Notes: generated by a model from the letters alone, not told the origin. 64,000 nucleotides of DNA from Xanthobacteraceae bacterium (GCA_030037895.1 JASHPW010000075.1:5899-69898); one strand, 5' to 3'; shown: positions 24,106 to 38,724, counted from the first letter of the stretch. Made by a program: numbers and translations.

Positions 24106-24169
24106 TTGTCGGTTGAGCCTGGGCCGATCACACGATATAAAGCGCATTCTCATTGTCCGACAACTCCGG

Positions 24170-27100
24170 ATGGACGGACAGGGGCAAGATACCTGCAGAT
24201 GGCGCCTTGGCTTGGCCGACGTAAGAATCGGCCAAAGATGGAACACCGCCCTTATGCCGCTCGTCGCCCTTGAGATTTTGCCGCAGCCCCACGAATGGCG
24301 AGCGTATGGCGGAACGTGGCGGGGCAACGTTTTCGAGGTCGATCCCGCACTCGTCGCGATCGATTTCAACGAGCCGCTGCTGGTATCACCTGATTTTGCT
24401 CTCAAGGCTGGCCAGTTCATGACCTTTACATTCTCGGCGTATTTCGGCGGCGGCGCTGCTTATTGCCTGCACATCGTCGAGGGTTCCCGCAACCGCCGCG
24501 TCCATAGCCGTCTGTTCGAGGCCATGGACGGCGACGCCCGACTGTCGCTTGCCTTCCGCGCCAGAAAGTCGGGCTCTTACCGGCTGGTTCTGGAGCACTA
24601 CGGACGTCCGAGGCGGAGCAAGCCGACCATCACGGCGCCGTCGGTCTCGGTGCAGGCCGTCGGCGCCGGCGCCGTCCGCAAGGGCCGGCTTGCCGAACTC
24701 AGCGTGGTCGCGGAGGAAAGCGATGACGCTCGCTATCTGCCACATTGGAACCCGATCCAGCGCCTCATTCACCGTCGCTGCCGTGCGTCGCGGGCGTTCA
24801 ACAATATCGTGGCGGCCATCGAGATGCGGCTTGGTCGCGAAGAGCTTCTCAGCCTCCCGCAGTACATGGGCCTTTGCCCGACGGGACAGTGCAATGCGCT
24901 GTGCGATTTCTGCTCGGTCACCATCAACCGCACCGGAATCATCAAGAAGCAATTGCCGTATGACCGCTTGGAAAACTTTTTGGCGCCGGTTACGAATACC
25001 ATACAAATGTATGGGATCGAGGGCAACGGCGAGCCGACGCTGTACACGCGTTTCCCCGAGTTGGTCGAAAGGCTCACGCGCGGGGGCGCCAGGGCCTATC
25101 TCATCACCAACGGCTCCCGGCTGCAGGTCGGCGACGTGCCGCTGCTGCTGACGCTCGCCTCGGTCAGTTTTTCTCTCAACGCCGCCACGGCCGAGACGCA
25201 TCGTTTGATCATGAAGCTGAAAAACTTTGAGGAGATCGGCGAAATCATCCGCGCGCTCGCCCGCGACCGTGGCCGCCCGGATGCTGCTTTGGATAAGGTA
25301 CCGAGCATCTATGTCTCCTTCGTCGTGACCAACGATAATGTCCACGAAGTACAAGACTTCCTGCGTTTTGCTGACCAGGACCTCGGGGTCGATGTCGTTC
25401 TCGTGCGGCCGTTGGCCGAGCTTGGCAACGATTTGGGAACGGTCGAGGACGTGCGTCATATCGTGCCATATGAAAGCGACGTCAGGGACATGACCGAGGC
25501 GGTGCGCGAATACATGCACGACGTTCCCGGAAACGCCGAAATTCGCATCGCACCCGAGACGTTTCGCTCCGTCCGTCCCGATCCGGTGGGACATGTCGTC
25601 ATGCCGCGCGGCTTCGAGGGGCGGCTCCTCGCCCCGCGTCGCGACGATTGGGAGGCGCTGCATCCGGGCGTCGTCGCTGTCTGGCATCTCAACAGCGCGT
25701 GCCTCGTATTTCCGGCCGTCGATGGCGAACTCCTGCGCTCGCAGCCCGTTCCTGTCGAGCCGGAACGCGAGCTGCAATTCAAGGCCCAAATCGCCGTATC
25801 GGGAGAGCCGGTGCGGCTGCTGATCGAAGATGGCGAGCACATGATTGTAGCGGAAGCCGTGCTCGCCGATACCGGCGGCCGGACCATTCCCCTCGAGCTG
25901 AAAATTCAGACCCGCCGCGCGAGCGCGCTCTCGTTCGTGCTTGCAGGTCACGGCCGTGCCGCGCGGTTGGATATCGATTTCGAGCGCCTGCGCACGCCGG
26001 CGCCTTACGTGAGCAGGGAATTTTGCATCCCGCCCAGCAGGCGATGGGAGGTCTGCGTTCCGGGCGCGGACGTGGAGTGGAGCGACGACGTCCTGCGGCT
26101 GCGATCGGCCACGGGCGGAGGGCCCTACCTGCTGAAAAGCTACAGCGTGCCTTGCGCCCGCGACAGCACGATCGAGCTTCCGGTCGAGGTGGACGTGCGC
26201 GAAGGGATGATCGACATCGGAGTTCTCGACCAGGCGGGCGCGTATTTGCAGACTTTCCAATTCGCGTCCGGCCATGCCGCTTCCCGCGTGTTCTTCAATA
26301 CCGGCGGCAATGACGGCGTACAGTTGGTCCTTTCCGCCCCCCCAAATCAGCCGCTCGATGCGGCCATCCGCTGGCTCAAGCCCCGGCTGATCGTGGAGGG
26401 CGACGAAGAGCTTCCGATCCGGCTGCCGAATGCGCCGGAATGGGCGGCCTGTGTGCCGGATTTGCAGATCGATCGACGCGCGGATGGCGTATCTCTGTCG
26501 TGGCAAGGCGAGGGCAGTCCGTACCTGCTCAAGAGCAACAAGGTCCGTTGCCGTCCTGGTCGCGCGACCAACGCGCATGTCCTCGTTCGAGTGGAGGCCG
26601 GCCGTTTATGCCTCGGCGTTCTGGACGGCACCGGCGCGAGGTGGTTGAGAACCGAAACAGTGCGCGAGGGCACGCATCAGGTCCAACTCGACTTCGACGC
26701 CGACGGGAGTGACGGGGTGTTCTTCGTGTTATCCGCGGTCGAAGGCGTCCCGGTGACGGCAAGCATCGACCTCTCGAATAACGGCCTTCTGCGGGGCGTC
26801 CCGGACGCGAAATCGGGCGATCGAGAGTCCCTGCCGGTTCTCGCGCTGGCGGAGGCTGCGGTGCGAAGCGCATCCGATGCGCCGGTAAGGACGATCGATA
26901 GGCGGCCGCCCACGGCCCCGGTGTCGCTCGCGGTTCCGCCCCGAAGGGAAGAGGCGAGCCCGCAGCTTCGGAATGGTCCCGCCGAAGGAGACGCGGCGAT
27001 CAAGACGCCGCCTGGATTCCCGTTGGCACCCGAAGTTCCCTTCTCTCCCGGCGGGCCGGACGGTGCACCGGAACGGATGCCGGCTGCCGCCGCGCAAACC

Positions 27101-27655
27101 TTCATGAACGACTTGGTCGATGCCTCTCCGCTTCGAGCGGTCGAGCCAAGTCGCGGCTCCGCCGCGCGCGATCGAGGGCCGCAGCCGGCCCGCAAAGGGT
27201 CGGAGCGCGCGTTTCCCGCCGTGAAGCGCCCGGCAACCCGCACGCGCTATTATTGTCAAAAGCCATGGACCGATCTCCATAATTTCACCGTTGACGGCCG
27301 CATGGATGTGTGCTGCATCGCCACGGGCGCAAGCCAGGAACGGTATCAGGTTGGAAATCTCACGCGGCAGACCTTTCAGGAAATCTGGAATGGGCCGGTC
27401 ATGCGCGAGTTCCGGCGCACGGTAAATAGCGACAATAAGCTTCCGCCTTGCGCGCGCTGCCCGATGAGCTATGCGTACCAGGGATTCTGGTTCGATCCGT
27501 CCAACACGCGCGACGAGGTGTCGGTTCTAGTGACGGCGATACTAAAAAAATTGCGAATGCTCTGGCTCGCAGGGCCCGCAGCGAAGTTGTGCGATCTTTT
27601 GCTTGACCATGTCGTCTTCAGAGGGTTCAACCGGGAAACGCGTTGGATGAGCTAA
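24170..27655 (+). CDS. Giant radical SAM protein with repeated beta-rich modules, a Pro/Ala-rich linker and a distal SPASM-like Cys-rich domain
   Basis: The CxxxCxxC motif (CNALCDFC) is encoded at 24890-24913, followed by GNGEPTL and a TIM-barrel-like region. Repeated ~100-aa modules lie at about 24290-24607, 25649-25957, 26045-26347 and 26435-26743. A Pro/Ala-rich stretch spans about 26840-27247. YYCQKPWTDLHNFTVDGRMDVCC...GNLTRQTFQEIWNG...PPCARCP lies at about 27248-27472. The track ORF starts at 24023, which is inside the transposon, so the first ATG outside it (24170) is preferred; 24254 is also possible. Confidence 0.85.
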   Translation: MDGQGQDTCRWRLGLADVRIGQRWNTALMPLVALEILPQPHEWRAYGGTWRGNVFEVDPALVAIDFNEPLLVSPDFALKAGQFMTFTFSAYFGGGAAYCLHIVEGSRNRRVHSRLFEAMDGDARLSLAFRARKSGSYRLVLEHYGRPRRSKPTITAPSVSVQAVGAGAVRKGRLAELSVVAEESDDARYLPHWNPIQRLIHRRCRASRAFNNIVAAIEMRLGREELLSLPQYMGLCPTGQCNALCDFCSVTINRTGIIKKQLPYDRLENFLAPVTNTIQMYGIEGNGEPTLYTRFPELVERLTRGGARAYLITNGSRLQVGDVPLLLTLASVSFSLNAATAETHRLIMKLKNFEEIGEIIRALARDRGRPDAALDKVPSIYVSFVVTNDNVHEVQDFLRFADQDLGVDVVLVRPLAELGNDLGTVEDVRHIVPYESDVRDMTEAVREYMHDVPGNAEIRIAPETFRSVRPDPVGHVVMPRGFEGRLLAPRRDDWEALHPGVVAVWHLNSACLVFPAVDGELLRSQPVPVEPERELQFKAQIAVSGEPVRLLIEDGEHMIVAEAVLADTGGRTIPLELKIQTRRASALSFVLAGHGRAARLDIDFERLRTPAPYVSREFCIPPSRRWEVCVPGADVEWSDDVLRLRSATGGGPYLLKSYSVPCARDSTIELPVEVDVREGMIDIGVLDQAGAYLQTFQFASGHAASRVFFNTGGNDGVQLVLSAPPNQPLDAAIRWLKPRLIVEGDEELPIRLPNAPEWAACVPDLQIDRRADGVSLSWQGEGSPYLLKSNKVRCRPGRATNAHVLVRVEAGRLCLGVLDGTGARWLRTETVREGTHQVQLDFDADGSDGVFFVLSAVEGVPVTASIDLSNNGLLRGVPDAKSGDRESLPVLALAEAAVRSASDAPVRTIDRRPPTAPVSLAVPPRREEASPQLRNGPAEGDAAIKTPPGFPLAPEVPFSPGGPDGAPERMPAAAAQTFMNDLVDASPLRAVEPSRGSAARDRGPQPARKGSERAFPAVKRPATRTRYYCQKPWTDLHNFTVDGRMDVCCIATGASQERYQVGNLTRQTFQEIWNGPVMREFRRTVNSDNKLPPCARCPMSYAYQGFWFDPSNTRDEVSVLVTAILKKLRMLWLAGPAAKLCDLLLDHVVFRGFNRETRWMS

Positions 27656-27739: not shown

Positions 27740-28888
27740 GTGGTGAGTGCGGACAATCATGCCAGACGCGTGTTGGTCGTCGTGGGTACTAGGCCGGAAG
27801 CCATCAAGATGGCGCCGGTCGTCCACAGCCTGACCGGCTGCGATGGGATCGAGCTTCGTCTATGCGTGACGGCGCAACATCGCTCCATGCTGGACGAAGT
27901 GCTGCGCGTGTTTGATCTGAGACCGGATTACGATCTGGCAATCATGCGGCCCGGGCAGACCATTTCCGGCGTTGCCGGCATGGTGCTTCGCGAGCTCGAT
28001 CCCATTCTTGAGGAATGGCGTCCCGATTGGCTATTGGTCCAGGGCGACACCACGACGACGATGGCCGCCTCGCTGGCGGCATTTCATCGCCGCATCGCGG
28101 TGGGCCATGTCGAAGCCGGACTGCGCACGCACGATGTGATGAATCCGTGGCCCGAGGAGGCCAACCGCCGCATCACCAGCATCGTCACGAAGCGCCACTA
28201 TTGTCCGACCGAGCGCGCCCGGCAAAGCCTGCTCGACGAGGCCGTCCCCGACGACGCAATCATCGTCACCGGCAACACCGTTGTCGACGCATTGAACATG
28301 GCCGTGGCGACGCTCGAACGTTCGCCCGGCATTCGCGATGAGCTGAGCCATCGGTTCAACGGATTCGGCGATAATCGACGCGTGATCTTGGTTACCGGTC
28401 ATCGGCGGGAAAGTTTTGGCGAAGGATTTCGGCAGATCTGTTGCGCCCTGGCCAAACTCGCCGAGCGCGAGGATGTTCAAATCGTTTATCCGGTTCATCT
28501 CAACCCCAATGTTCAGGCGCCGGTCTTCGAGACGCTCGGCAACCGGGAGAGGATCAAACTGATCGAGCCGGTGGATTATCTCGCCTTCGTGTGGCTGATG
28601 CAGCGCAGCTTCTTTATTCTGACCGACTCCGGCGGCGTGCAGGAGGAAGCGCCGGCCCTCGGAAAGCCGGTGCTGGTCATGCGCGACGCCACCGAGCGGC
28701 CCGAGGCGATCGAGGCAGGAAGCGCGCGTCTCGTCGGAACGAAGGTCGAAAGAATCGTAGCTGAATGCGAAGCGCTGCTCGACCAGCCGCATCATCACAG
28801 AGCCATGAGCGCCGTCCGCAATCCATTCGGAGACGGACTCGCGGCGCGCCGCATCGCACGAGACTTGATGAATGAGTGCCGCGTTTGA
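27740..28888 (+). CDS. wecB: UDP-N-acetylglucosamine 2-epimerase (non-hydrolysing)
   Basis: VLVVVGTRPEAIKMAPVV, VQGDTTT, HVEAGLRT and DSGGVQEEAPALGKPVLVMR are present. Confidence 0.9.
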   Translation: MVSADNHARRVLVVVGTRPEAIKMAPVVHSLTGCDGIELRLCVTAQHRSMLDEVLRVFDLRPDYDLAIMRPGQTISGVAGMVLRELDPILEEWRPDWLLVQGDTTTTMAASLAAFHRRIAVGHVEAGLRTHDVMNPWPEEANRRITSIVTKRHYCPTERARQSLLDEAVPDDAIIVTGNTVVDALNMAVATLERSPGIRDELSHRFNGFGDNRRVILVTGHRRESFGEGFRQICCALAKLAEREDVQIVYPVHLNPNVQAPVFETLGNRERIKLIEPVDYLAFVWLMQRSFFILTDSGGVQEEAPALGKPVLVMRDATERPEAIEAGSARLVGTKVERIVAECEALLDQPHHHRAMSAVRNPFGDGLAARRIARDLMNECRV

Positions 28889-30122
28889 GAAAGTTGCGAT
28901 TATCGGGCTTGGCTATGTCGGCCTGCCCACGGCCGCCACGATTGCCGCCCGCGGCATCCAGGTGCTTGGCGTCGATGTGCGCGAGGATGTGGTCGGGCGC
29001 GTCAATGACGGCGGCACCCACATCATCGAACCCGATCTCGACATCATCGTGCACAGCGTTGTGAGCACCGGCAAGTTGCGCGCGATCGCGACGCCGGAGC
29101 CCGCCGACGCGTTCGTGGTTGCCGTGCCGACGCCGGCCTCGCGCGAGCATAAGCCCGACATGCGCGCGGTCGAACAGGCGCTTACCGCCGTCGCGCCGGT
29201 CCTCGCCCGGGGAAACCTGGTCATTATCGAATCGACGTCGCCGGTGGGCACGACCCGTCAGGCCGCCGAGCAATTACGCGGGTTGCGACCGGATCTCAGC
29301 TTTCCGGATTTGGCTCCGGAACGCGCCGACGTGATGATGGCCTATTGCCCGGAGCGAATTCTGCCGGGCAATACATTGCGCGAGCTGACCGACAATGACC
29401 GGCTTGTGGGCGGGCTTGACCAGCGCAGCGCGGAGCGCGCCGAAGCGCTGTATGCGACCTTCGTCAAGGGCACCATTCACCGCACGGATGCGGCGACAGC
29501 CGAATTGGTCAAGTTGACCGAGAATGCCTTCCGGGACGTGAACATCGCCTTCGCCAACGAGCTGTCGCTGATCTGCGAGGCGTCCGGCATCGACGTTTGG
29601 CAGGTCATTCGCCTCGCCAACATGCACCCCCGGGTCAATATTCTCGACCCGGGACCGGGAGTCGGCGGCCATTGCATTCCGGTTGATCCGTGGTTCATCG
29701 TCGACCAGCAGCCAAAGCTTGCGCGGTTGATCCGTACGGCTCGAGAGGTCAATCGTACAAAACAAGAGCATGTCGCCGACCGCATTCAGCGTACAGCGAG
29801 CCGGTTTCGCGACCCGCGGATCGCCCTTCTTGGTCTCACCTATAAACCCAACGTGGACGACCTTCGCGAAAGTCCGGCAGTCGCGGTGGCGGAGAAACTC
29901 ATTGCGGCGAAAGCCGGGCAGCTGTTCCTAGTCGAACCCCATTTGTCCGGTCTGCCGAGTCGTTTCAACGGCAAGCCGGGGGTGCACTGGTCCGATCTCG
30001 GCGAGGCGATCATGGAAGCCGATATCGTCGCTCTGCTCGTCGCACACGATCAGTTCAGGAAAATCGATCGCCGCCTGTTGACCGAGAAAATTCTGATCGA
30101 CACGATCGGCTTGTTGCGATGA
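28872..30122 (+). CDS. wecC: UDP-N-acetyl-D-mannosamine dehydrogenase
   Basis: [43 protein letters not shown] and LGLTYKPNVDDLRESPA are present. The gene overlaps the wecB stop by 17 nt. Confidence 0.9.
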   Translation: MSAAFEKVAIIGLGYVGLPTAATIAARGIQVLGVDVREDVVGRVNDGGTHIIEPDLDIIVHSVVSTGKLRAIATPEPADAFVVAVPTPASREHKPDMRAVEQALTAVAPVLARGNLVIIESTSPVGTTRQAAEQLRGLRPDLSFPDLAPERADVMMAYCPERILPGNTLRELTDNDRLVGGLDQRSAERAEALYATFVKGTIHRTDAATAELVKLTENAFRDVNIAFANELSLICEASGIDVWQVIRLANMHPRVNILDPGPGVGGHCIPVDPWFIVDQQPKLARLIRTAREVNRTKQEHVADRIQRTASRFRDPRIALLGLTYKPNVDDLRESPAVAVAEKLIAAKAGQLFLVEPHLSGLPSRFNGKPGVHWSDLGEAIMEADIVALLVAHDQFRKIDRRLLTEKILIDTIGLLR

Positions 30123-30150: not shown

Positions 30151-32802
30151 ATGAGGCAAGTTCTATTCAGCAGCACGAAAGCGCTGGTGGCCCGTATGCC
30201 CAGACCGAGCGTCGAGGCCGGTGCGGTCCTGGTTCGCACGCACTACTCGCTCATCAGTACGGGCACCGAGATTGCTTCGCTGAAGCCGCTGAGCGCCGGA
30301 GCCGCCGGCGCGACCGCTGCCGAGCGCGTCGGCGATCTTTCCGGGCGGGCCAGAGTGTACCTGGGCAAGGCCCTCGCCGACCCGCGGCGCGCGATTGATC
30401 GCGCCATGGGCCTCGCCGGCACCGTGTTGCGCCGGCGCTTGGCGGACGCAATTCCGCGGCCGGATTTGCCGCCGGTCCCGGTCGGTTCGATCAAATGGAC
30501 GCGGCAGTCTGCCGGCACCTGCGAGGTCTCCGGCGGCGGGCTCACGCTCGTCTCCGCCGGCGATCCCGGGCATTATCAGGCCGCATCCCAGCCGATTGAG
30601 GTCGCACCCGGCTATCTTCTCGAGATACGCCTCAAAGGACGCGTCGATAAGGGCGCCTTCATGCTCGGCCTCCTGAATGACGACAAATCGCGCTGGCTCG
30701 GCATGGTGCCAATCTCGGAAGGCCCGCTCGACGAAGTGCTGCATTTGGACCCCGGGCAGGCGAAAGAAGTGACGCTGATGCTGACGAATCCGGCCGCCGC
30801 GGGCGAGAACCGCATGGCGCTCGAGCGATCGGATGTGGTCATGGTCCCGCCGGTGAGCGCGGGCGTGCCGGTGACGGAGATGACCGATCAAGGCTGGAAT
30901 GTCGGTTATTCGATCGCCGGCGAGGTCGTTGAGGTGGGTGCCGGCGTGACGGCCTTTGCTGCCGGCGATCGGGTTGCCTGCGCCGGCGCCGGCCAAGCCA
31001 ACCACGCCGACTATGTTTGCGTAAAGCGCAACTTGGTTTGCCGGGTGCCCGACGGTTGTTCGCTGCGGGAGGCGGCCACGGCGACCGTGGGCGCCATTGC
31101 CATGCAGGGGGTGCGCCGTGCCGCCCCGCAGCTCGGCGAGGTGATATGCGTTTTTGGCCTCGGCCTGGTCGGGATGATCACCGTTCAGCTCTTGCGTGCA
31201 GCCGGCTGCCGGATCATCGGCGTCGATCTCGACGCCGAGCGCTGCCGGCGCGCCGTTGCCAGCGGTGCCGCCGCGGCGGAGACCGAGATCGATCGCGTGC
31301 AGCTTCTCTTGCGTGAATTTACCGGCGGTCATGGCGTTGATGCGACCATCCTTACCGCGGCGACCAAATCCAATGGGCCGATCAACACGGCGATGGAGCT
31401 GACGCGCCGACACGGCCGGGTCGTGATCGTCGGCGATGTCGGCCTCAAGGTCGAACGCGCCGCCTTCTATCGCAAGGAAATCGACCTGCTCATGAGCACG
31501 TCGTACGGCCCCGGCCGCTATGACCGTGATTACGAAGATTACGGGCGTGATTATCCCTATGGTTTTGTGCGCTGGACCGCCAACCGCAACATGCAATCCT
31601 ATATGGAGCTAATCGCGGAGAAGCGAATCGACGTCGCTTCGCTTATCGATCGCGTGGTCCCGATCGACGATGCCCCGGCGACCTACGAGGAGTTGGCGTC
31701 AGGCGCGCAGACGCCCCCGCTGGCGGTGGTGCTGTCCTACCCGAAACCCGCTCGCGTCCAGCTCGATGCTTTTGATGCGGCGGTGATCCGCTTGCGGGGA
31801 CATCGCCAGCCGATCCGCGCGCGCATCAATTATGCGCTGGTCGGCGCAGGAGGGTTTGGCACCCAAATGCTCGTGCCGACGATGGAGCGGCGCAAGGATC
31901 GATTCTTCCTGCGCGCGGTGGTGAGCCGGGATGCAACGCGCGGCGGCAATTTCGCCCGTTCCAAGCGGGTCGAGCTGCTGTCGTCGAACTATGACGATGT
32001 CCTGGCAGATGAGGCCATCGACCTCGTGGTCATCGCCACGCGGCACAACGAACACGCGGCACAGGTGATCAAAGCGCTGCGGGCCGGCAAGCATGTCTTC
32101 GTCGAGAAGCCGCTCGCGATCAATTGGGAACAGCTCGACGCCGTGCGCCGCGAAGTCGAAACGCGCGGCGACTCTGCGCGGCTGATGGTCGGATTTAATC
32201 GGCGGTTCGCGCCGGCCTTGCAGCGCTTGCGTCAGGAACTCGGAGAGCAACGCACGCCGCTTGTGGTCAATTATCGCATTCATGCCGGCTATCTCCCGCT
32301 GGATCATTGGGTGCACGGGGCGGAGGGCGGCGGCCGCAACATCGGCGAAGCCTGCCACATGTACGACGTCTTCAGTTTCCTCGCCGGCGCTCCGGTTTGC
32401 TTCATCGATGCCAGGGCTATTGATCCCGGCGATCGCGCTTATGCGCGCAACGATAATTTCTGCGCAACGATCGGCTACGAGGACGGCAGCCTCTGCACCC
32501 TGACCTATACGGCCTTGGGACCGAAAGCCGGCCTGGCAAAGGAGCGCATCGAGGTCTTCGCCAACGGCGAGGCGTGGATCGTCGACGATTTCGCCAGCCT
32601 CACCCGGACGAGCGATGGCGCCGTGCTGTGGTCGGCGCCTGCCGCCGACAAGGGTCATTTCGAAGAGTTGTCCCGTTTCGGCGACGCGATTGCGGAAGGC
32701 AAGCCTGCGCCCGTTCCCGCAGAAGAGCTCTTGCAAACCACGGCGGTGGCTTTGCGTGTCGAAGATTTGCTGTTCGGCCGCGCGGCCGAGGAGCCGGATT
32801 GA
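30151..32802 (+). CDS. Bi-domain oxidoreductase (MDR zinc-alcohol-dehydrogenase-like + Gfo/Idh/MocA) with a ~110-aa inserted module
   Basis: An MDR N-terminus (VLVRTHYSLISTGTE) is followed by an insertion at about 30487-30825. The MDR fold then resumes (GYSIAGEVVEVGAGV...VFGLGLVGMITVQLLRAAG). The Gfo/Idh/MocA half reads INYALVGAGGFGTQ...EKPLA. Confidence 0.8.
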   Translation: MRQVLFSSTKALVARMPRPSVEAGAVLVRTHYSLISTGTEIASLKPLSAGAAGATAAERVGDLSGRARVYLGKALADPRRAIDRAMGLAGTVLRRRLADAIPRPDLPPVPVGSIKWTRQSAGTCEVSGGGLTLVSAGDPGHYQAASQPIEVAPGYLLEIRLKGRVDKGAFMLGLLNDDKSRWLGMVPISEGPLDEVLHLDPGQAKEVTLMLTNPAAAGENRMALERSDVVMVPPVSAGVPVTEMTDQGWNVGYSIAGEVVEVGAGVTAFAAGDRVACAGAGQANHADYVCVKRNLVCRVPDGCSLREAATATVGAIAMQGVRRAAPQLGEVICVFGLGLVGMITVQLLRAAGCRIIGVDLDAERCRRAVASGAAAAETEIDRVQLLLREFTGGHGVDATILTAATKSNGPINTAMELTRRHGRVVIVGDVGLKVERAAFYRKEIDLLMSTSYGPGRYDRDYEDYGRDYPYGFVRWTANRNMQSYMELIAEKRIDVASLIDRVVPIDDAPATYEELASGAQTPPLAVVLSYPKPARVQLDAFDAAVIRLRGHRQPIRARINYALVGAGGFGTQMLVPTMERRKDRFFLRAVVSRDATRGGNFARSKRVELLSSNYDDVLADEAIDLVVIATRHNEHAAQVIKALRAGKHVFVEKPLAINWEQLDAVRREVETRGDSARLMVGFNRRFAPALQRLRQELGEQRTPLVVNYRIHAGYLPLDHWVHGAEGGGRNIGEACHMYDVFSFLAGAPVCFIDARAIDPGDRAYARNDNFCATIGYEDGSLCTLTYTALGPKAGLAKERIEVFANGEAWIVDDFASLTRTSDGAVLWSAPAADKGHFEELSRFGDAIAEGKPAPVPAEELLQTTAVALRVEDLLFGRAAEEPD

Positions 32803-34928
32803 TGGACTACCTCTATATCGAGCCGACGCTGCAAAGTTGTGGGATTATCGAGGACGATCGGCCAGCGGAGTTTTCAGAGCGGCATCATTTTCGTCTGCCG
32901 GTCGTGACGCTGAAGGCGACGCCTCGGCTCGAAGGCGAGATCGATGCGCACGCCGGCTTCGGCGTGATTGTGGGTTTGAGCGGCGGCCTGCCGAACCGCC
33001 GTCAGCTACGCATCGTCCGGCGCGCAATAAACCGCGGGCGGCGCGCCTTTCTCTATTGGCCGGCTGAGAACGCGATCGAGGTTGTCGATCGCCAGCGCCT
33101 GGGCAGTCTCTGGCGACACTGGTTGGCGTACAACCTGGGAATTCGCCTGCTGCCGATCCTCGCGCGCGAGAAAGAGCCGCAGCAGCCGACCCCGCCGCCG
33201 TCCAGCGAATCGGCGACCGAGAGCGCCGCGTCCTTGCGGCGGCCAGCGCTCAACTTTGTGATCGCCGATTTCGAATGCACAAAGGCCCACATGCTCGGCG
33301 GAATCGCCGAAATCCGCAGGCTCGGTGATGCGATCGGCCGAATCGACGGTCAATTATGCAAAGTCGAGTTGGAAACGTGCGACGTTCCGGACAGCGTGCG
33401 CGCCGATCTGCGACGAGCCGCCGAGGAGATTGCCGCCGTGCGTAGAAGCATGGAAAGCCTGCAATCACATATGGACGGCGGTGGAATAGCGCTGAACCGC
33501 ATCGGCGAAAATTTGGATAATTGGATGCGGCTTTGGCAGCCGGCGAGCGGCGTGCGGCTGATTGCAACAGATGAGAGCGCATCGCCCGCCGACGCCTACC
33601 GTCGGGAATTGGCGGCCTTTCGCGAGGTTTTGCGTCCTGTTCCGTTCCCGCGTCTCACGCAGACGCCATCGCCCGAGGCGCCGATCCCGGGCACGGGCGT
33701 GTACGTGCGAACCGATTATTGGGCGCGGCTCGTCTCCGGCGGAAGCTACGGGCATACCTGCTACGTCGCCAAGGAGTTGAGCGCGGTCACGCAACGGTTC
33801 AGGTGCTTGATGGCGAGCCGCTTTGCGCTTCTCGACGAATTGGGCATCGTGCAGGAGGTCATTCGGCAGCCGCTGAAGGACTCCTCGGAAACAGATCTCC
33901 TCAGGGCCGACCGGTTCCATTATCAGGCGCTGCGCGACCGCCTGCAGGCTCTGCAACCCACTTATCTGTATGAACGGCTTTGCTTGGGCAATTTCGCGGT
34001 GGCGCGCCTCAGCCGGGAACTTAATATTCCGTATATTGTCGAGTACAACGGCTCGGAAATATCGATGCGGCGCAGCTTCGGTTCCGGAGCTTATGCGTAC
34101 GAAGATTTGTTCCAGCAGGCCGAGGAAGTCGCCTTCAGGCAAGCCACGATCATCACGGTCATTTCCGACCGCGTGCGCGATGACGTGATCGCACGGTGCG
34201 CAAATCCGGCGAAGGTTTTTGTCAATCCCAACGGCGTCGATTGCGAGGAATACGTACCGCCCAGTGCCGACGAGCGGCGGGAGATACGGGCTTCCCTGGA
34301 TTTTGCCGACGAGCCGGTCGTCGGCTTCATCGGTACCTTCGGCGGCTGGCATGGCATCGACGTGCTGGCGGCGGCACTGCCGAAAATCTGCCGAAGCGCG
34401 CCCGAAGTGAAGTTCCTTCTCATCGGCGACGGCAATCTGAAATCCACGGTACGCGACGCAATTCGCGAGAATAAGCTCGATGACCGGGTCGTCGACGTCG
34501 GCCGTACCGAGCAGCAGGTCGGCGCTCGTCTGCTCAAGGCGGCCGATATCTTCGTGTCACCGCATTCGAGCCATATGGTCGACAGCCCGTTTTTCGGCTC
34601 TCCGACCAAGCTGTTCGAATACATGGCGCTCGGCGGAGGGATCGTCGCCAGCGATCTGGAACAGCTCGGGGTCGTCATAACGCCGGCGTTGCGGCCGTCC
34701 GACTTCGCATCGGGGTCGGTAAAAGTCCGCGACCAGCGTGGCGTGTTGTGCAGGCCGGGCGACGTTGACGATTTCGTAGCCGGAGTGTTGGCGTTGGTGC
34801 GCAACCCCGATGTTACGGCGGCGCTCGGGCGTAACGCGCGTGCAGCGGCGCTCGCGCATTATTCCTGGCGACAACACGTGAGGCGGATCTGGGACCATGT
34901 ACTTGCTGTCGATCAGCCATCGGATTAG
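32802..34928 (+). CDS. Glycosyltransferase (GT4-like C-terminal half) with a ~330-aa N-terminal extension containing a coiled-coil-like segment
   Basis: The ATG at 32802 overlaps the upstream stop (TGATG). The C-terminal half has GFIGTFGGWHGIDVL...GSPFFGSPTKLFEYMALGGGIVASD. The N-terminal region shows heptad-like periodicity (AEIRRLGDAIGRIDGQLCKVELE...RRAAEEIAAVRRSMESLQSHM). Confidence 0.8.
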   Translation: MDYLYIEPTLQSCGIIEDDRPAEFSERHHFRLPVVTLKATPRLEGEIDAHAGFGVIVGLSGGLPNRRQLRIVRRAINRGRRAFLYWPAENAIEVVDRQRLGSLWRHWLAYNLGIRLLPILAREKEPQQPTPPPSSESATESAASLRRPALNFVIADFECTKAHMLGGIAEIRRLGDAIGRIDGQLCKVELETCDVPDSVRADLRRAAEEIAAVRRSMESLQSHMDGGGIALNRIGENLDNWMRLWQPASGVRLIATDESASPADAYRRELAAFREVLRPVPFPRLTQTPSPEAPIPGTGVYVRTDYWARLVSGGSYGHTCYVAKELSAVTQRFRCLMASRFALLDELGIVQEVIRQPLKDSSETDLLRADRFHYQALRDRLQALQPTYLYERLCLGNFAVARLSRELNIPYIVEYNGSEISMRRSFGSGAYAYEDLFQQAEEVAFRQATIITVISDRVRDDVIARCANPAKVFVNPNGVDCEEYVPPSADERREIRASLDFADEPVVGFIGTFGGWHGIDVLAAALPKICRSAPEVKFLLIGDGNLKSTVRDAIRENKLDDRVVDVGRTEQQVGARLLKAADIFVSPHSSHMVDSPFFGSPTKLFEYMALGGGIVASDLEQLGVVITPALRPSDFASGSVKVRDQRGVLCRPGDVDDFVAGVLALVRNPDVTAALGRNARAAALAHYSWRQHVRRIWDHVLAVDQPSD

Positions 34929-35787
34929 GTTTGATGCGCAGCAAATACAAGCGAGAGAGGGCTGGTCGGTGTCCGCGGCGCTTGAGACTGACGATTTTTA
35001 CAAGGATGAGGTTCGCCGCCAATGGGACCGGGATCCTTGCGGCTCTCACTACGTCGAGCAAGCCCAGCCGGACACGCTCGAATGGTTTCTTGAGGCCGAA
35101 CGCTATCGCTATGACGTGTACGCGCCATGGATGCGCGAACTCATGGAGTTTGACCGGCATGCCAGCGAGGTCATTCTTGAAATCGGCGCCGGCATGGGCA
35201 CCGATCACGCGCAGTTCGCGAAAAACGGGGGCGTCATGCACGACATCGATCTCGCCGCGGGTCATCTGAAGCTGGCGCGGCGCAATTTCGAGCTCCGCGG
35301 ATTGCACGGCACGTTCCTGCACGGCGACGCCGAAGCGATCCCTTATCCTGACGGCACTTTCGATCTCGTTTACTCCAACGGCGTGATCCACCACACTCCG
35401 AATACGGCGTGCGTCGTCGCGGAGATCTACCGGGTGCTCAAGCCCGGTGGCCGCTGCATCATCATGGTCTACGCCGAGAATTCGCTGCACTATTGGCGGA
35501 ATTTGTTCCGCGATTATGGGATTTCTCGCGGCGAACTCGAAATGGCGTCGATGGGCGAAATCATGTCTCGCTATGCCGAGTTGTCGGAGCATGGGGCGAA
35601 ACCGCTGGTGAAGGTTTACACCGCACGCCGCCTGAGACATTTGTTCGCACGATTCAAATCGATCCGTATCTACAAGCGACAGCTCATGCGCGAGGAATTG
35701 CCGCGACGCTTGCGCTCGCTGCCGCTTGGTTTGGCCGGGCGGATGATGGGCTGGAACCTCATCCTCAAGGCGCAAAAGCCGTGCTAG
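34897..35787 (+). CDS. Class I SAM-dependent methyltransferase
   Basis: ILEIGAGMGTD is motif I. DAEAIPYPDGTFDLVYSNGVIHHTPN and LKPGGRCIIMV are also present. The start is uncertain; the ORF overlaps the upstream gene by 32 nt. Confidence 0.8.
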   Translation: MYLLSISHRIRFDAQQIQAREGWSVSAALETDDFYKDEVRRQWDRDPCGSHYVEQAQPDTLEWFLEAERYRYDVYAPWMRELMEFDRHASEVILEIGAGMGTDHAQFAKNGGVMHDIDLAAGHLKLARRNFELRGLHGTFLHGDAEAIPYPDGTFDLVYSNGVIHHTPNTACVVAEIYRVLKPGGRCIIMVYAENSLHYWRNLFRDYGISRGELEMASMGEIMSRYAELSEHGAKPLVKVYTARRLRHLFARFKSIRIYKRQLMREELPRRLRSLPLGLAGRMMGWNLILKAQKPC

Positions 35788-35797: not shown

Positions 35798-37888
35798 TTG
35801 CCGCCCGCAGGGTTCGGCCGGCGCCGGTCGCGCGGTGCTCACGAGACGCGAGCCGCGCCGAACGTGACCGTCTCCCGTGTCGCCGAAACATTGGTGCAGC
35901 GCGCCCGCGAGGCGCTGAGACGCGGACCCAAGGGGGCAGACGCCGCGCCGGACGATTTCGGCCGCGCGCTCGCCAAGGCCGGTCTCGCCTTTCCGCGCTG
36001 GCTGCAACGGCGCCGAATCGCCCCGCGTCAATATGTCGAGCTGGCGCTCCCCCATTTGGTTTCGCTGCGCGCCACCGCGCCGAAGGCGGTCGAGGCGACG
36101 GTCGCCGCTGCCGCCGGCTTCCTGCAACATCGGTTCGATCTGCTCGGCAGCGGGCCGTATCGTCCCGCCGATCCCGAACGGCCGGCTCGCGACGGCTACG
36201 CTCCGATCGACTGGTATCTCGATCCCGTCCGCCAACTGCGCTTTCCGCGCGGCGTGCCTTACAAGGAATGGCGTCTCTATGAGATGCGGCCGGGCCAAGC
36301 CGACATCAAATATCCCTGGGAGCTTGCGCGCTCGCAGCACTGGCTGACTATCGCGCAAGCCTGGCAGCTTTCGCGCGACATCCGTTTCGCCCGTGAAATT
36401 GCCTTCCAGCTCGACAATTTCATCGAGGCGAATCCGGTCGGCGTCGGCGTCAATTGGACCTGCACCATGGATGTGGCCATCCGCGCCGCCAATTGGTGCC
36501 TGGCGCTCGCCCTGCTGCTCGACTGCCCGGCGCTCGACGAGGCGTTTTGGCGGCGGGCTTTCGCCGCGCTCTACGATCATGCGGTCTTTATCTTCACCAA
36601 TCTCGAGAACAAATATGAGGTCACCAGCAATCATTATCTGAGCAATCTCGTGGGGCTGCAGGTGCTGGCTTCCGAGTTTTCCGATCTCGCAGCCGGTGCG
36701 GAATGGAACCGTTGGTCTCGCCAGGCGCTGGAGACAGAGATGACCGTCCAGGTGCACGACGAAGGCACCGACTTCGAATCGTCGGTTCCGTATCACCGCC
36801 TGGTCACCGAACTGTTCATGGCTTCGGCGCGGCTGGCGCGGCTTCAGCAACAGCCGCTGAGCGCCGCCTTCGAATCGAAGCTGGCGCGCATGGCGGATTT
36901 CTCGCTCGCGGTCGCGCGTCCGGACGGCCGCATGCCGGTCATCGGCGATGCCGATGACGGGCGCTTTCATATCTTCAGCCATTTCGGCGGTTGGGATCGA
37001 CAGGACGCCCGTCACCTGCTGGCGCCGGCGGCGCTCCTCTTCGGTCGCCGCGAGCTGTTCGCGGCCGCGGGCCCGGGAGCGGCGTGGGAGGCGGCCTGGT
37101 GGGGCTTCGATCCGGCGGAGGCGACCTCCGGCGGCGCGCCTTTACCGGAAGCATGCGCGTTGTACCCGGCATTCGGCATTGCCGTGGCGCGCCGTGGCGG
37201 GCACTATCTGGCGATAACCAATGGTCCCGTCGGCACTCGCGGCTTCGGCAATCACAAGCACAATGAGCTTCTGAGCTTCGAATACCATTGCGACGGCGTT
37301 CCGCTCGTCGTCGATCCCGGCAGCTTCGTCTATACGTCGGACTTTGCCGCTCGCAATCTGTTCCGCGGCACCGCCTACCACAACACGGTCATGGTCGACG
37401 GCGTCGAGCAGAACGAATTCAATCCCGAGTGGATTTTCCGGATGTTCGAGAAGGCCGATCCGGAGCACCTGCATTTTGCCAAGGAAGACGAGCTTGTGCG
37501 TTACCGCGGCCGCCATAGAGGCTATAATCGGCTGGCGCAGCCGGTGATGCACGAGCGGGAGTTCGTTTTCGACCTGCGGGATGGAAGCTTGCGCATCGAG
37601 GACACGCTTGAGGGTGAGGGCATGCACGACATGCGCTGGCATTTCCATTTTGCCCCCGCCGTTTCGGTCATCGCGCAGACGACCGACCGGCTCACGCTGA
37701 GAGCGGCCGGTCTGATGAGCCTGGTCCTGTCCTTCGATCCGGACTTGAGCGCGACCGTTGTCGACGCCTGGTATTCGCCCTCATACGGCGTGCGTGTGCC
37801 GGTGCGGGCGGTGAATTTGGCTTGCCACACGGTGCTCGCCGGACGTAAGTCGTGGAAATTCTCGGTCGCGGCTTCGAGCGGGAGATGA
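35798..37888 (+). CDS. Heparinase II/III-like protein (copy 1), no obvious signal peptide
   Basis: YPWELARSQHW, NHYLSNLVGL and YHRLVTELF are present, and the C-terminal half has GNHKHNELLSFEYHCDGVPLVVDPGSFVYT...AYHNTVMVDG. The start is a TTG at 35798 or a GTG at 35867. Confidence 0.8.
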   Translation: MPPAGFGRRRSRGAHETRAAPNVTVSRVAETLVQRAREALRRGPKGADAAPDDFGRALAKAGLAFPRWLQRRRIAPRQYVELALPHLVSLRATAPKAVEATVAAAAGFLQHRFDLLGSGPYRPADPERPARDGYAPIDWYLDPVRQLRFPRGVPYKEWRLYEMRPGQADIKYPWELARSQHWLTIAQAWQLSRDIRFAREIAFQLDNFIEANPVGVGVNWTCTMDVAIRAANWCLALALLLDCPALDEAFWRRAFAALYDHAVFIFTNLENKYEVTSNHYLSNLVGLQVLASEFSDLAAGAEWNRWSRQALETEMTVQVHDEGTDFESSVPYHRLVTELFMASARLARLQQQPLSAAFESKLARMADFSLAVARPDGRMPVIGDADDGRFHIFSHFGGWDRQDARHLLAPAALLFGRRELFAAAGPGAAWEAAWWGFDPAEATSGGAPLPEACALYPAFGIAVARRGGHYLAITNGPVGTRGFGNHKHNELLSFEYHCDGVPLVVDPGSFVYTSDFAARNLFRGTAYHNTVMVDGVEQNEFNPEWIFRMFEKADPEHLHFAKEDELVRYRGRHRGYNRLAQPVMHEREFVFDLRDGSLRIEDTLEGEGMHDMRWHFHFAPAVSVIAQTTDRLTLRAAGLMSLVLSFDPDLSATVVDAWYSPSYGVRVPVRAVNLACHTVLAGRKSWKFSVAASSGR

Positions 37889-38724
37889 TTGTGGCCGTCG
37901 TCGGACCAGCCTTGCATAGTCGGCCGGAGGCCGCCGCCCGCGTGTTCCTGCGTGACCTGTTCCGCCACCGGCTGCTGCTCTCGTCGACCACGCGAATCGA
38001 ATTGCAGAAGCGATACGCCGGATCTGTGCTTGGTTTCGCCTGGGTCTTTCTCAACCCGCTTCTGTTCCTGGGGGTTTATCTTTTCCTCTATCTCGTCGTG
38101 TTCAAGATGCGCCTGCCGGAGATGAGCGAACTCGGCTTCGCCGTGTTCGTGTTCAGCGGGCTCGTCCCCTATATGGGCTTCATGGAAGTAGCGAGCGGCA
38201 GCGTCGGGTTGATGAAGGCAAATCTTCACTTCGTGAAGAATCTGCTGTTCCCGATCTCGCTGTTGCCGGTGCGCATGGCCCTGATCGCCCTCGTATCGGA
38301 GCTGGTCGGGCTCGCCATGGTCATTGTGCTTTCCGGATTGGACGGCCAATTATCCGCACAACTGGCGCTGCTGCCTGTCGTGGTGCTGTTGCAATTCCTG
38401 TTCTTCGTCGGAATTGCATTCCTGTTCTCGGTGTTCGGAATGATGCTTCCGGATTTCGGCTATTTCCTGAACACATTTCTGCTGTTCATTCTTTTTGTCA
38501 CGCCGATCGGGTTCCAACCCGGTATGGTGCCGTCGCGGTTGAGGCTGGTCGTCATCTTCAATCCCTTCTACTACATGATCGACGCCTTCAGGTCGGCCCT
38601 GCAGGCAACCCACGGTGTCCGCTGGGCCGGCATCGGCGTCTTCGCGGCGATGTCGATCATCGTGTTCTATCTTGGCGCCGCATGTTTCCGGCGCTTCCAA
38701 ACCCATCTGGTCGATTATGAATAA
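37885..38724 (+). CDS. wzm: ABC-2 type polysaccharide exporter permease (Wzm-like)
   Basis: The ATG at 37885 overlaps the upstream stop (ATGA). The N-terminus ELQKRYAGSVLGFAWVFLNPLL is typical of ABC-2 permeases, and about 6 hydrophobic helices follow. Confidence 0.85.
   Translation: MIVAVVGPALHSRPEAAARVFLRDLFRHRLLLSSTTRIELQKRYAGSVLGFAWVFLNPLLFLGVYLFLYLVVFKMRLPEMSELGFAVFVFSGLVPYMGFMEVASGSVGLMKANLHFVKNLLFPISLLPVRMALIALVSELVGLAMVIVLSGLDGQLSAQLALLPVVVLLQFLFFVGIAFLFSVFGMMLPDFGYFLNTFLLFILFVTPIGFQPGMVPSRLRLVVIFNPFYYMIDAFRSALQATHGVRWAGIGVFAAMSIIVFYLGAACFRRFQTHLVDYE

What the first reader, a model, noticed from the sequence alone, without database searches (positions are those of the whole stretch)
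24170..27655. Giant radical SAM enzyme with its SPASM-like domain displaced ~600 residues from the core, in a polysaccharide operon
Seen directly in the sequence:
- A canonical CxxxCxxC motif (C-N-A-L-C-D-F-C) is encoded at 24890-24913.
- A SPASM-type Cys-rich segment (YYCQKPWTDLHNFTVDGRMDVCC ... GNLTRQTFQEIWNG ... PPCARCP) is encoded at about 27248-27472.
- Three ~100-aa repeats lie between them at about 25649-25957, 26045-26347 and 26435-26743. Two of them align clearly: ...GGGPYLLKSYSVPCARDSTIELPVEVDVREGMIDIGVLDQAGAYLQTF...GVQLVLSA against ...GEGSPYLLKSNKVRCRPGRATNAHVLVRVEAGRLCLGVLDGTGARWLRTE...GVFFVLSA.
- A ~135-residue Pro/Ala-rich linker follows the repeats.
- A fourth, more divergent module precedes the radical SAM core.

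In the characterised SPASM/twitch enzymes I know (anSME, BtrN, PqqE, AlbA), the auxiliary-cluster domain follows the barrel directly.

The gene heads an operon of tightly spaced, in several places overlapping, genes: wecB, wecC, an oxidoreductase, a glycosyltransferase, a methyltransferase, a heparinase-like gene and wzm/wzt. I found no peptide-precursor-like ORF next to it. My inference is that it acts on a sugar or glycan rather than a peptide. BtrN and DesII are precedents for radical SAM chemistry on carbohydrates.
Basis: partly seen in the sequence, partly recalled or inferred. Interest (0 to 1): 0.85.

Follow-up and report, generated by a model that had tools for sequence, protein, structure and literature searches.

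The report
Glycan-locus radical SAM enzyme, split by inserts
This is a real, widespread but unstudied radical SAM enzyme whose iron-sulfur "twitch" domain is separated from its catalytic barrel by one to five inserted beta-sandwich modules, and it almost always sits in polysaccharide (Wzm/Wzt export) gene clusters, so it probably performs radical chemistry on a sugar polymer.

Summary
One ORF (best start 24254, stop 27655, 1133 aa) encodes, in order:
- a beta-sandwich module;
- a radical SAM barrel with CX3CX2C;
- three more ~105-aa modules;
- a ~135-aa disordered Pro/Ala linker;
- a Cys-rich domain that passes Pfam SPASM.

That last domain has only C-x13-G-x4-CC...C-x2-C. It is therefore a one-cluster twitch, not a seven-Cys SPASM.

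When the insert is spliced out, the profile aligns continuously with SuiB, from the barrel into the SPASM domain. The inserts begin about 246 residues after CX3CX2C, which is the normal barrel/SPASM junction.

More than 120 homologues carry 1-5 modules, so this is not an assembly fusion.

In about 25 loci from five bacterial groups the gene lies in glycan clusters, often directly beside wzm or wzt. No conserved peptide gene accompanies it.

Two points are new:
- The un-named module also occurs in the locus's oxidoreductase, and elsewhere in GT4, Wzt, AlgX-like and GT-C proteins.
- A natural fusion joins this enzyme to the heparinase II/III-like protein.

The substrate and the chemistry remain inferred. 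I rate it a new variant of a known kind.

The parts
24254..27655 (+). Gene for the 1133-aa radical SAM/twitch enzyme. An alternative upstream ATG at 24170 would give 1161 aa.
   Evidence: Uninterrupted ORF. Exact protein P0001 found in two independent assemblies. Homologues place CX3CX2C at about residue 210, as with the 24254 start.
24278..24595 (+). N-terminal copy of the ~105-aa beta-sandwich module ('module X')
   Evidence: Family HMM E 4e-6. All-beta with pLDDT above 90 in the AF2 model. The HMM detects it in 13 of 120 family members.
24779..24877 (+). Two extra conserved cysteines upstream of the cluster motif: C176 (nearly invariant) and C208 (invariant), 1133-aa numbering
   Evidence: Alignment of 108 homologues; Cys positions.
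24878..25372 (+). Radical SAM core. It contains CX3CX2C at 24890-24913 and the GNGEP SAM-binding-type motif at 25022-25036.
   Evidence: Pfam PF04055 above its cut-off. Invariant C213/C217/C220 and G257-P261. Foldseek matches to SuiB, BlsE and DesII.
25631..25948 (+). Module X copy A, the first insert after the barrel
   Evidence: HMM E 9e-22. Beta-sandwich in the AF2 model. In the family the first module starts a median of 246 aa after CX3CX2C.
26027..26338 (+). Module X copy B, the best-conserved module type, whose type is the one kept in single-module homologues
   Evidence: HMM E 6e-34. B against C gives z = 31. W598 is invariant. Two-module AF2 model has pLDDT 90.
26423..26737 (+). Module X copy C
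   Evidence: HMM E 1e-29. Foldseek places it with tandem jelly-roll/CBM-like domains.
26807..27211 (+). Disordered Pro/Ala-rich linker that returns the chain to the barrel
   Evidence: pLDDT below 50 over residues 852-986. The interval from the end of the last module to the first twitch Cys is 50-173 aa in all homologues.
27254..27463 (+). Twitch-type auxiliary Fe-S domain: C1001-x13-G-x4-C1020 C1021 ... C1066-x2-C1069
   Evidence: Pfam SPASM above its cut-off. Five invariant Cys. Predicted beta-hairpin, then helices. The spliced profile aligns colinearly with the SuiB SPASM domain and weakly with the BtrN twitch.
27497..27616 (+). Two C-terminal helices after the twitch domain; role unknown
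   Evidence: AF2 helices H1082-1099 and H1103-1121. The tail length is roughly conserved in the family.
27740..30122 (+). wecB (UDP-GlcNAc 2-epimerase) and wecC (UDP-ManNAc dehydrogenase family)
   Evidence: Pfam.
30151..32802 (+). ADH_zinc_N + GFO_IDH_MocA fusion oxidoreductase. It carries its own module X at about 30493-30783.
   Evidence: Pfam. Module HMM E 1e-10. Found in most related loci.
32802..35787 (+). Large GT4 glycosyltransferase followed by a class I methyltransferase
   Evidence: Pfam; gene calls.
35798..37888 (+). Heparinase II/III-like protein, the conserved partner of the radical SAM enzyme. The ORF starts at 35798; the gene call in L001 corresponds to a start at 35864.
   Evidence: Pfam. 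Co-occurs in 23 of the 28 loci with an informative flank, or 21 of 26 once L001/L002, which are the window's own locus, are set aside. Fused to the enzyme in P0165.
37852..40657 (+). wzm and wzt (with a C-terminal Wzt_C carbohydrate-binding domain): the ABC exporter for the lipid-linked glycan
   Evidence: Pfam.

Best explanation
What it is. The gene encodes a cytoplasmic radical SAM enzyme of the SPASM/twitch class. One to five copies of an un-named ~105-aa beta-sandwich module, plus a flexible linker, have been inserted exactly at the junction between the barrel and the auxiliary-cluster domain.

How it is built.
- The twitch domain is still the cognate partner of the barrel.
- After the linker it folds back onto the barrel and supplies one auxiliary [4Fe-4S] cluster, with C1001, C1020 or C1021, C1066 and C1069 as ligands.

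How it most likely works.
- The enzyme works inside a Wzm/Wzt (ABC-transporter-dependent) polysaccharide assembly line, together with the heparinase II/III-like protein.
- It acts on the undecaprenyl-linked, uronic-acid-containing glycan on the cytoplasmic side before export.
- The modules hold the polymer, or hold the enzyme within the assembly complex.
- The 5'-deoxyadenosyl radical abstracts a sugar C-H.
- The radical is then resolved in one of two ways. Either an electron passes to the twitch cluster, giving BtrN-type oxidation, or a spare conserved cysteine (C176, C208 or the second Cys of the CC pair) returns a hydrogen atom, giving epimerisation.

Shown: the domain order, its recurrence, the glycan-locus linkage, the sharing of the module, and the fusion.

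Inferred: docking of the twitch domain, the polymer as substrate, and the reaction type.
For: Domains and structure
- Both Pfam domains score above their cut-offs.
- CX3CX2C, GNGEP and five twitch cysteines are invariant in 108 homologues.
- With the insert removed, the profile aligns in one piece with SuiB residues 116-410 at E 8.6e-8. The alignment runs through the barrel into the first SPASM Cys and hairpin. There is also a weak match to the BtrN twitch.
- Inserts begin a median of 246 aa after CX3CX2C.
- The full-length AF2 model has pLDDT 84.5 and pTM 0.83 despite 153 disordered residues. Such a pTM is hard to reach unless the domains, twitch included, are placed confidently relative to each other.

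Context
- Eight of the 9 places read by the look-up of encoding contigs are glycan loci: 7 of the first 7 and 1 of the 2 further ones.
- Most of the 25 genome loci carry the same cassette.
- The gene directly abuts wzm or wzt in at least 10 loci.
- Stop and start codons overlap with the heparinase-like gene and with wzm in Pseudomonas.
- No conserved same-strand small ORF is present.

The module
- Module X also occurs in the ADH-GFO oxidoreductase, GT4, Wzt, an AlgX-like acetyltransferase and a GT-C (PMT_2) protein. All of these are glycan-handling proteins.
- Foldseek places it with CBM-like jelly rolls.

Link to the heparinase-like protein and to uronic acids
- The natural fusion P0165 runs radical SAM, module, twitch, heparinase II/III. 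It sits in the same cassette.
- The full-length family profile hits BlsE best among solved structures; BlsE is also among the barrel's structural matches. BlsE acts at C5 of a glucuronic acid residue (PMC3715490).
- The locus encodes WecC and uronamide-type AsnB enzymes.
Against: - No substrate is shown.
- By spliced profile the closest solved relatives are peptide-modifying enzymes (SuiB, SkfB, YydG). The best NCBIfam hits are protein 'maturases', all far below their cut-offs.
- The CBM-like assignment of the module rests on generic jelly-roll matches with low TM-scores.
- The module shows no profile similarity to Wzt_C, and no Pfam family covers it.
- One homologue (P0120) lies outside any glycan locus.
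- I could not inspect model coordinates or the predicted aligned error. Docking of the twitch domain is therefore inferred from pTM alone.
- The reaction type is a guess between at least three chemistries.
Confidence: 0.5

Rival explanations
1. The enzyme is a protein maturase. It would install a post-translational modification on a partner protein of the locus, most plausibly the heparinase II/III-like protein, as anSME does for sulfatases. The modules would then bind that protein partner.
For: - The nearest solved relatives by sequence are the peptide-modifying enzymes SuiB, SkfB and YydG.
- The top NCBIfam hits are 'maturase' families.
- There is tight linkage, translational coupling and a fusion with the heparinase-like protein.
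Against: - All those family hits are far below their cut-offs.
- There is no RRE/PqqD-type domain and no conserved small ORF.
- Module X also occurs in Wzt, GT4, AlgX-like and GT-C proteins that have no reason to bind the heparinase-like protein.
- About a fifth of the loci lack a heparinase-like gene within 10 kb.
Confidence: 0.17
2. The enzyme acts on a soluble nucleotide-sugar precursor, for example a UDP-ManNAcA derivative. This would resemble BlsE, DesII or BtrN acting on small carbohydrate substrates. The modules would only tether it to the assembly complex.
For: - The barrel matches the carbohydrate-acting enzymes BlsE and DesII in sequence and structure.
- In the window the gene sits directly upstream of wecB and wecC.
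- The oxidoreductase, which looks like a nucleotide-sugar enzyme, carries the same module.
Against: - Linkage to wecB and wecC is weaker than to the GT4, heparinase-like gene, oxidoreductase and wzm/wzt.
- The usual position is beside wzm or wzt.
- The fusion is to a polysaccharide-lyase-fold protein.
- Multiple tandem modules are typical of polymer binding. This last point is inference.
Confidence: 0.2
3. The enzyme is the chain terminator or chain-length ruler of the ABC-transporter pathway. It would play the role of WbdD by modifying only the non-reducing terminal residue, creating the cap that the Wzt carbohydrate-binding domain reads. The variable number of modules would set the spacing. 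This is a special case of the best explanation.
For: - The position beside or between wzm and wzt resembles that of known terminators. The position of known terminators is from my own knowledge of E. coli O9a wbdD.
- Partner Wzt proteins carry Wzt_C.
- Module number varies from 1 to 5.
Against: - Most loci also carry a double methyltransferase next to wzt, which is a more conventional terminator candidate.
- Linker length and module number are only loosely related.
- Nothing shows terminal specificity.
Confidence: 0.1

Closest known systems
BtrN (2-deoxy-scyllo-inosamine dehydrogenase), the prototype twitch radical SAM enzyme
   Same: - It has a radical SAM barrel plus a single-cluster twitch domain, and a carbohydrate-like substrate.
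- The twitch Cys layout is the same: Cys, beta-hairpin, Cys, helix, CX2C.
- Sequence match to BtrN residues 192-236 is weak, E 0.016.
- The definition of twitch is taken from PMC6231123.
   Different: - In BtrN the twitch follows the barrel directly, and the protein has about 270 residues.
- Here about 555 residues (three modules plus a linker) intervene.
- Here there are also extra invariant cysteines.
- The exact spacing of the BtrN ligands is from my memory and was not verified.
SuiB (streptide Lys-Trp crosslinking radical SAM/SPASM enzyme, PDB 5V1Q)
   Same: - It is the best solved-structure match once the insert is spliced out: E 8.6e-8.
- The alignment is colinear through the barrel into the first SPASM Cys and hairpin.
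- It is also a structural match for the barrel.
   Different: - SuiB has a full seven-Cys SPASM domain, an RRE domain and a precursor peptide.
- None of these is present here.
BlsE (cytosylglucuronate decarboxylase, PDB 7VOB)
   Same: - It is the best hit of the full-length family profile among solved structures, E 1.6e-5, over the barrel only.
- Its TM-score of 0.52 (normalised by target length) is the highest among the radical SAM entries in the 50 matches shown.
- It acts at C5 of a uronic acid (PMC3715490).
   Different: - BlsE is a protein of about 330-360 residues (327-364 in the PDB chains listed) acting on a nucleoside sugar.
- The NCBIfam BlsE model scores 19.5 bits against a cut-off of 400.
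NCBIfam NF033640 N_Twi_rSAM (radical SAM proteins with an N-terminal twitch domain)
   Same: - It is the best domain-level match to this twitch: E 2.7e-11, profile positions 4-69.
[quoted passage not shown]
   Different: - There the twitch precedes the core. Here it follows, after the inserts.
- The score is 43 bits against a cut-off of 170, so this protein is not a member.
AlgX-type polymer-modifying enzymes and Wzt transporters that carry carbohydrate-binding modules
   Same: - A catalytic or transport domain is combined with beta-sandwich modules in a polysaccharide pathway.
- Module X itself is found in an AlgX-like protein and in several Wzt proteins.
   Different: - Those proteins are not radical enzymes.
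- Module X is not Wzt_C: hhalign probability 3%.

Membership tests
Radical SAM superfamily (PF04055) | CX3CX2C motif that binds the SAM-cleaving [4Fe-4S] cluster | tested here: met
   CNALCDFC at 24890-24913. It is invariant in 108 homologues.
Radical SAM superfamily (PF04055) | Profile match above the curated cut-off, and a partial TIM-barrel fold | tested here: met
   38.9 bits against 29.5. The AF2 model matches SuiB, BlsE and DesII.
Radical SAM superfamily (PF04055) | Reductive cleavage of SAM to the 5'-deoxyadenosyl radical | not testable with these tools
   This needs anaerobic reconstitution. The invariant GNGEP motif corresponds to the GGEP motif essential in BlsE.
SPASM subfamily (two auxiliary clusters) | Seven-cysteine motif CX9-15GX4C-gap-CX2CX5CX3C-gap-C (PMC6231123) | tested here: not met
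   Only C-x13-G-x4-CC and C-x2-C are conserved. The CX5CX3C part and the final C are absent in all 120 homologues. Pfam PF13186 still matches because that model covers both types.
Twitch subclass (one auxiliary cluster) | Truncated SPASM: Cys before a beta-hairpin, Cys after it, a helix, then paired Cys | tested here: met
   C1001; strands 1007-1009 and 1016-1018; C1020/C1021; helices; C1066-x2-C1069. There is a weak match to the BtrN twitch.
Twitch subclass (one auxiliary cluster) | The domain binds an Fe-S cluster next to the active site | not testable with these tools
   Only pTM 0.83 suggests confident domain packing. No coordinates were available.
RiPP-maturing radical SAM/SPASM enzymes | Adjacent precursor peptide gene | tested here: not met
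   No conserved same-strand small ORF lies within 1.5 kb in 26 loci. The only shared small ORFs are antisense shadows of neighbouring genes.
RiPP-maturing radical SAM/SPASM enzymes | RRE/PqqD-like peptide-recognition domain | tested here: not met
   No such Pfam hit at E up to 1. The N-terminal domain is an all-beta module.
NCBIfam N_Twi_rSAM (NF033640) | Score above the curated cut-off, with the twitch domain N-terminal to the core | tested here: not met
   43.2 bits against 170. Here the twitch is C-terminal.
BlsE family (TIGR04466) | Score above the curated cut-off | tested here: not met
   19.5 bits against 400.
Carbohydrate-binding modules (for module X) | Beta-sandwich or jelly-roll fold | tested here: inconclusive
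   Foldseek E about 1e-9 to the CBM22 tandem, Vip3 domains IV-V and GH101. TM-scores are low and bicupins also match.
Carbohydrate-binding modules (for module X) | Binds a carbohydrate | not testable with these tools
   Indirect only: the module occurs solely in glycan-handling proteins.

The most novel reading that the evidence does not exclude
This would be the first radical SAM enzyme that works on a polysaccharide chain rather than on a small molecule or peptide. It would form a two-enzyme unit with the heparinase II/III-fold protein, which is sometimes fused to it. The unit would edit uronic-acid residues of the lipid-linked O-polysaccharide before export, for example by radical epimerisation or oxidation at an unactivated carbon alongside C5 chemistry by the lyase-fold partner. 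It would use a new family of glycan-binding modules shared by the whole assembly line.
Probability: 0.3. Interest if true: 0.85.

Novelty: new variant of a known kind. Interest (0 to 1): 0.62.

Why it matters
- Radical SAM/twitch enzymes are known for small carbohydrates and peptides. A polymer-directed one would add a new type of chemistry to bacterial surface-glycan biosynthesis.
- It would also explain a conserved, unannotated cassette found in Pseudomonas, Bradyrhizobium, Nitrospirales, Nitrospinaceae and Planctomycetota.
- The architecture shows that a twitch domain can tolerate more than 500 inserted residues at its junction with the barrel. This bears on how such enzymes are recognised in genome annotation.
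- The ~105-aa module is a candidate new domain family with no Pfam model.
- Homologues exist in culturable Pseudomonas, so the hypothesis can be tested directly.

Tried and rejected
- Pairwise self-BLAST of the protein found no repeats. Smith-Waterman with shuffles showed only B-C as significant. A family-iterated HMM was needed to detect the other two copies.
- Module X is not related to Wzt_C: hhalign probability 3%. No Wzt CBM structure appears among the 50 best Foldseek hits shown.
- The twitch domain alone found nothing in PDB sequences, even at E up to 10.
- Linker length as a simple function of module number: Spearman 0.67, but the sequences are related and the trend flattens at 4-5 modules. 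I do not build on it.
- Seven completed literature searches found no paper on this family or on a radical SAM gene beside wzm/wzt. The terms covered radical SAM with Wzt, O-antigen, twitch, polysaccharide, CBM, heparinase with wzm/wzt, and BlsE.
- I could not verify the exact BtrN ligand numbering from the papers held.
- Assembly fusion is rejected.
- A RiPP precursor is rejected.

Full report
**1. Observation**

The window has an uninterrupted + strand ORF from 24023 to 27655. The identical database protein P0001 starts at ATG 24254 and has 1133 aa. P0001 occurs in two independent assemblies, a Logan assembly of SRR21679874 and GCA_030049465.1. Homologues place the cluster motif at about residue 210, which fits the 24254 start.

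- CNALCDFC lies at 24890-24913.
- Pfam Radical_SAM matches aa 237-401 of the 1161-aa reading (38.9 bits, cut-off 29.5). Pfam SPASM matches aa 1029-1098 (46.6 bits, cut-off 21.5).
- Repeats B and C are clearly homologous, with z = 31 against shuffles.
- A profile iterated within the family detects four copies: aa 37-142, 488-593, 620-723 and 752-856.
- The linker is predicted to be disordered over 135 residues.
- The neighbouring genes are as described. They are wecB, wecC, an ADH_zinc_N+GFO_IDH_MocA fusion, GT4, a methyltransferase, a heparinase II/III-like gene, wzm, and wzt with a Wzt_C domain.
- The glycan locus continues to about 57 kb. That stretch holds more methyltransferases, two AsnB-type amidotransferases, three GT4 genes and a second heparinase-like gene.

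**2. The C-terminal domain is a twitch, and it belongs to this barrel**

Across 120 homologues the conserved cysteines are:
- two upstream of the motif (C176 and C208 in 1133-aa numbering);
- CX3CX2C itself;
- C1001-x13-G-x4-C1020 C1021 ... C1066-x2-C1069.

The SPASM definition is CX9-15GX4C-gap-CX2CX5CX3C-gap-C, with twitch as the truncated one-cluster form (PMC6231123). The CX5CX3C part and the last Cys are missing here. The domain is therefore twitch-type.

I spliced out the insert, keeping residues 160-445 and 992-1085, for 19 homologues and searched PDB sequences with the resulting profile. SuiB matched at E 8.6e-8 in a single alignment, profile positions 33-339 against SuiB residues 116-410. 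That alignment runs through the barrel into the first SPASM cysteine and hairpin. SkfB, YydG and BlsE matched the core. The BtrN twitch (residues 192-236) matched weakly.

In the family the first inserted module begins a median of 246 residues after CX3CX2C, with a range of 236-395. This is where a SPASM or twitch domain normally starts; that last statement is from my own knowledge of the canonical enzymes.

The full-length AlphaFold2 model has mean pLDDT 84.5 and pTM 0.83, although 153 residues are disordered. I read this as confident relative placement of the ordered domains, the twitch included. I could not inspect coordinates, so docking remains an inference.

**3. The architecture recurs**

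- The homologue search returned at least 120 proteins of 639-1382 aa, all with both Pfam domains.
- The number of modules between barrel and twitch ranges from 1 to 5. An N-terminal copy is detected in 13 of 120 members.
- The interval from the last module to the first twitch Cys, which contains the linker, is 50-173 residues in every member.
- Carriers include isolates (Pseudomonas asplenii/fuscovaginae, P. putida 31800, P. tohonis, P. otitidis, Bradyrhizobium sp. LB7.2).
- They also include genomes of Roseiarcus (the closest, 59% identity), Terasakiella, Hyphomicrobiaceae, Methyloligellaceae, Nitrospirales, Nitrospinaceae, Brocadiaceae and Gemmataceae.

An assembly fusion is excluded. All database names are the generic 'radical SAM/SPASM domain-containing protein'. 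Every NCBIfam hit is far below its cut-off.

**4. Genomic context**

- Seven of the first seven places examined are Wzm/Wzt polysaccharide loci. Six of the seven carry the same cassette: the ADH+GFO fusion, a large GT4 (sometimes fused to a methyltransferase), a heparinase II/III-like gene, methyltransferases, AsnB and often WecB. The seventh, the Nitrohelix locus L006, has only part of it: WecB, WecC and the ADH+GFO fusion, with no heparinase-like, wzm or wzt gene within 10 kb.
- In two loci (L005 and L007) the gene lies between wzm and wzt.
- In Pseudomonas the order is heparinase-like, radical SAM, wzm, wzt, with overlapping stop and start codons.
- I ran tblastn with the window's proteins against all the loci held. 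Twenty-eight have an informative flank; two of them (L001/L002) are the window's own locus and a few others repeat each other (L011 = L003, L014 = L005). The oxidoreductase was found in 22, the large GT4 in 24 and the heparinase-like gene in 23, mostly within 10 kb.
- One Brocadiaceae locus is a different glycan cluster (DegT, WbqC, NeuB). One Planctomycetota homologue is not in a glycan locus.
- A search for small ORFs within 1.5 kb of the gene in 26 loci found nothing conserved on the same strand. It found only antisense shadows of neighbouring genes.

**5. The inserted module**

- No Pfam family covers it.
- A two-module model (pLDDT 90) matches tandem jelly-roll or carbohydrate-binding-type domains: the CBM22 tandem, Vip3 domains IV-V and GH101. 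E-values are near 1e-9, TM-scores are low, and bicupins also appear. The fold class is clear but the function is not.
- It is not related to Wzt_C at profile level.

Its distribution is more telling. The same module occurs in several other proteins:
- the N-terminal part of the locus's ADH+GFO oxidoreductase (window about 30493-30783, and most related loci);
- the Pseudomonas GT4;
- several Wzt proteins, next to their Wzt_C domain;
- an AlgX-like acetyltransferase, as two copies in the position where AlgX has its binding module;
- an unknown 1035-aa neighbour of the gene in the Brocadiaceae locus.

A scan of 1.84 billion representative proteins found only 225 matches at E up to 0.001. Most are this enzyme family. 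The others scanned against Pfam include another Wzt and a GT-C (PMT_2) glycosyltransferase. The module is rare, and every annotated carrier I examined handles glycans.

**6. Link to the heparinase-like protein**

Representative P0165 (1440 aa) is a natural fusion. Its order is Radical_SAM 61-213, module 434-539, SPASM 587-656, Hepar_II_III_N 866-1046 and Hepar_II_III_C 1218-1420. It occurs on two contigs. It is followed by the ADH+GFO gene, GT4, wzt, a methyltransferase, wzm and AsnB.

Together with the conserved adjacency, this argues that the two proteins work on the same object in the cytoplasm.

The heparinase II/III fold belongs to enzymes that act at C5 of uronic acids; this is established knowledge of polysaccharide lyases. 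The locus encodes WecC and AsnB-type amidotransferases. The full-length family profile hits BlsE best among solved structures; BlsE acts at C5 of a glucuronic acid residue (PMC3715490).

**7. Mechanism**

My best account, with confidence about 0.5, is as follows:
- It is a cytoplasmic radical SAM/twitch enzyme that acts on the lipid-linked, uronic-acid-containing glycan before Wzm/Wzt export.
- It is held on the polymer or in the assembly complex by its modules, and it works with the heparinase-like protein.
- The sugar radical is resolved either by electron transfer to the twitch cluster (oxidation, as proposed for BtrN and anSME; PMC6231123) or by hydrogen return from a spare invariant cysteine (epimerisation).

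Rivals are a protein maturase acting on the heparinase-like partner (0.17), a nucleotide-sugar enzyme (0.20), and a terminal-cap or ruler role (0.10, a special case of the best account). The peptide-modifying nature of the nearest solved relatives is the main argument for the maturase rival. The distribution of the module argues against it.

**8. Verdict**

The glycan association is solid, the substrate is not shown, and 'SPASM' should read 'twitch'.

A detached twitch has a catalogued precedent in N_Twi_rSAM. The split placement alone is therefore not categorically new.

The combination appears undescribed: modules inserted at the barrel/twitch junction, tight coupling to Wzm/Wzt loci and to a lyase-fold partner, and a shared un-named module. 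I found nothing on it in the literature held. I rate it a new variant of a known kind, interest 0.62.

Noticed in passing
window 30493-30783 (inside the ADH+GFO gene 30151-32802); also L003 5953-7830, L013 7061-9439, L021 2769-4985, L006 5392-7467: The ~105-aa module of the radical SAM enzyme is also present in the locus's fusion oxidoreductase. In other genomes it occurs in GT4, Wzt, AlgX-like and GT-C proteins. No Pfam model covers it, so it is a candidate new domain family.
   Followed up: yes
L036 124-4446 (protein P0165): A natural fusion joins the radical SAM/module/twitch enzyme to a heparinase II/III-like protein. It is followed by the same cassette: ADH+GFO, GT4, wzt, a methyltransferase, wzm and AsnB.
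   Followed up: yes
window 38615-40657: Wzt is unusually long at 680 aa. About 230 residues between the ATPase domain and Wzt_C (aa 525-636) are unassigned. The module HMM did not match this stretch.
   Followed up: partly
window 40679-41707 (-): A galactose-3-O-sulfotransferase-like gene sits just after wzt on the opposite strand, in a stretch of lower G+C (0.58-0.60). Among related loci only L004 shows a match (29% identity); the others have none.
   Followed up: partly
window 52241-54463: A second, more divergent heparinase II/III-like gene lies in the same glycan locus, next to AsnB and GT4 genes.
   Followed up: no
window 21484-22359 (-), 22844-23665 (+), 58714-60021 (-): The glycan locus is flanked by mobile-element-like genes. 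On one side is an HTH-domain, transposase-like ORF in a low-G+C stretch (0.55). On the other is an ERF-family recombinase with a DUF968 domain. This hints at horizontal acquisition.
   Followed up: no
L006 10001-15631; L005 16592-19432; L008 4768-5799: Some related loci hold further radical SAM genes. The Nitrohelix locus (L006) has two tandem paralogues of this family, and also a B12-binding radical SAM gene at 22323-23381. L005 has a 946-aa STM4011-like radical SAM protein with FG-GAP repeats. L008 has a 343-aa STM4011-like protein next to wzt.
   Followed up: partly
window 23784-24083 (-): A 99-aa ORF just upstream, on the opposite strand, has a Lys/Gly/Arg-rich C-terminal half. It is not conserved next to homologues and does not resemble a precursor peptide.
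   Followed up: partly
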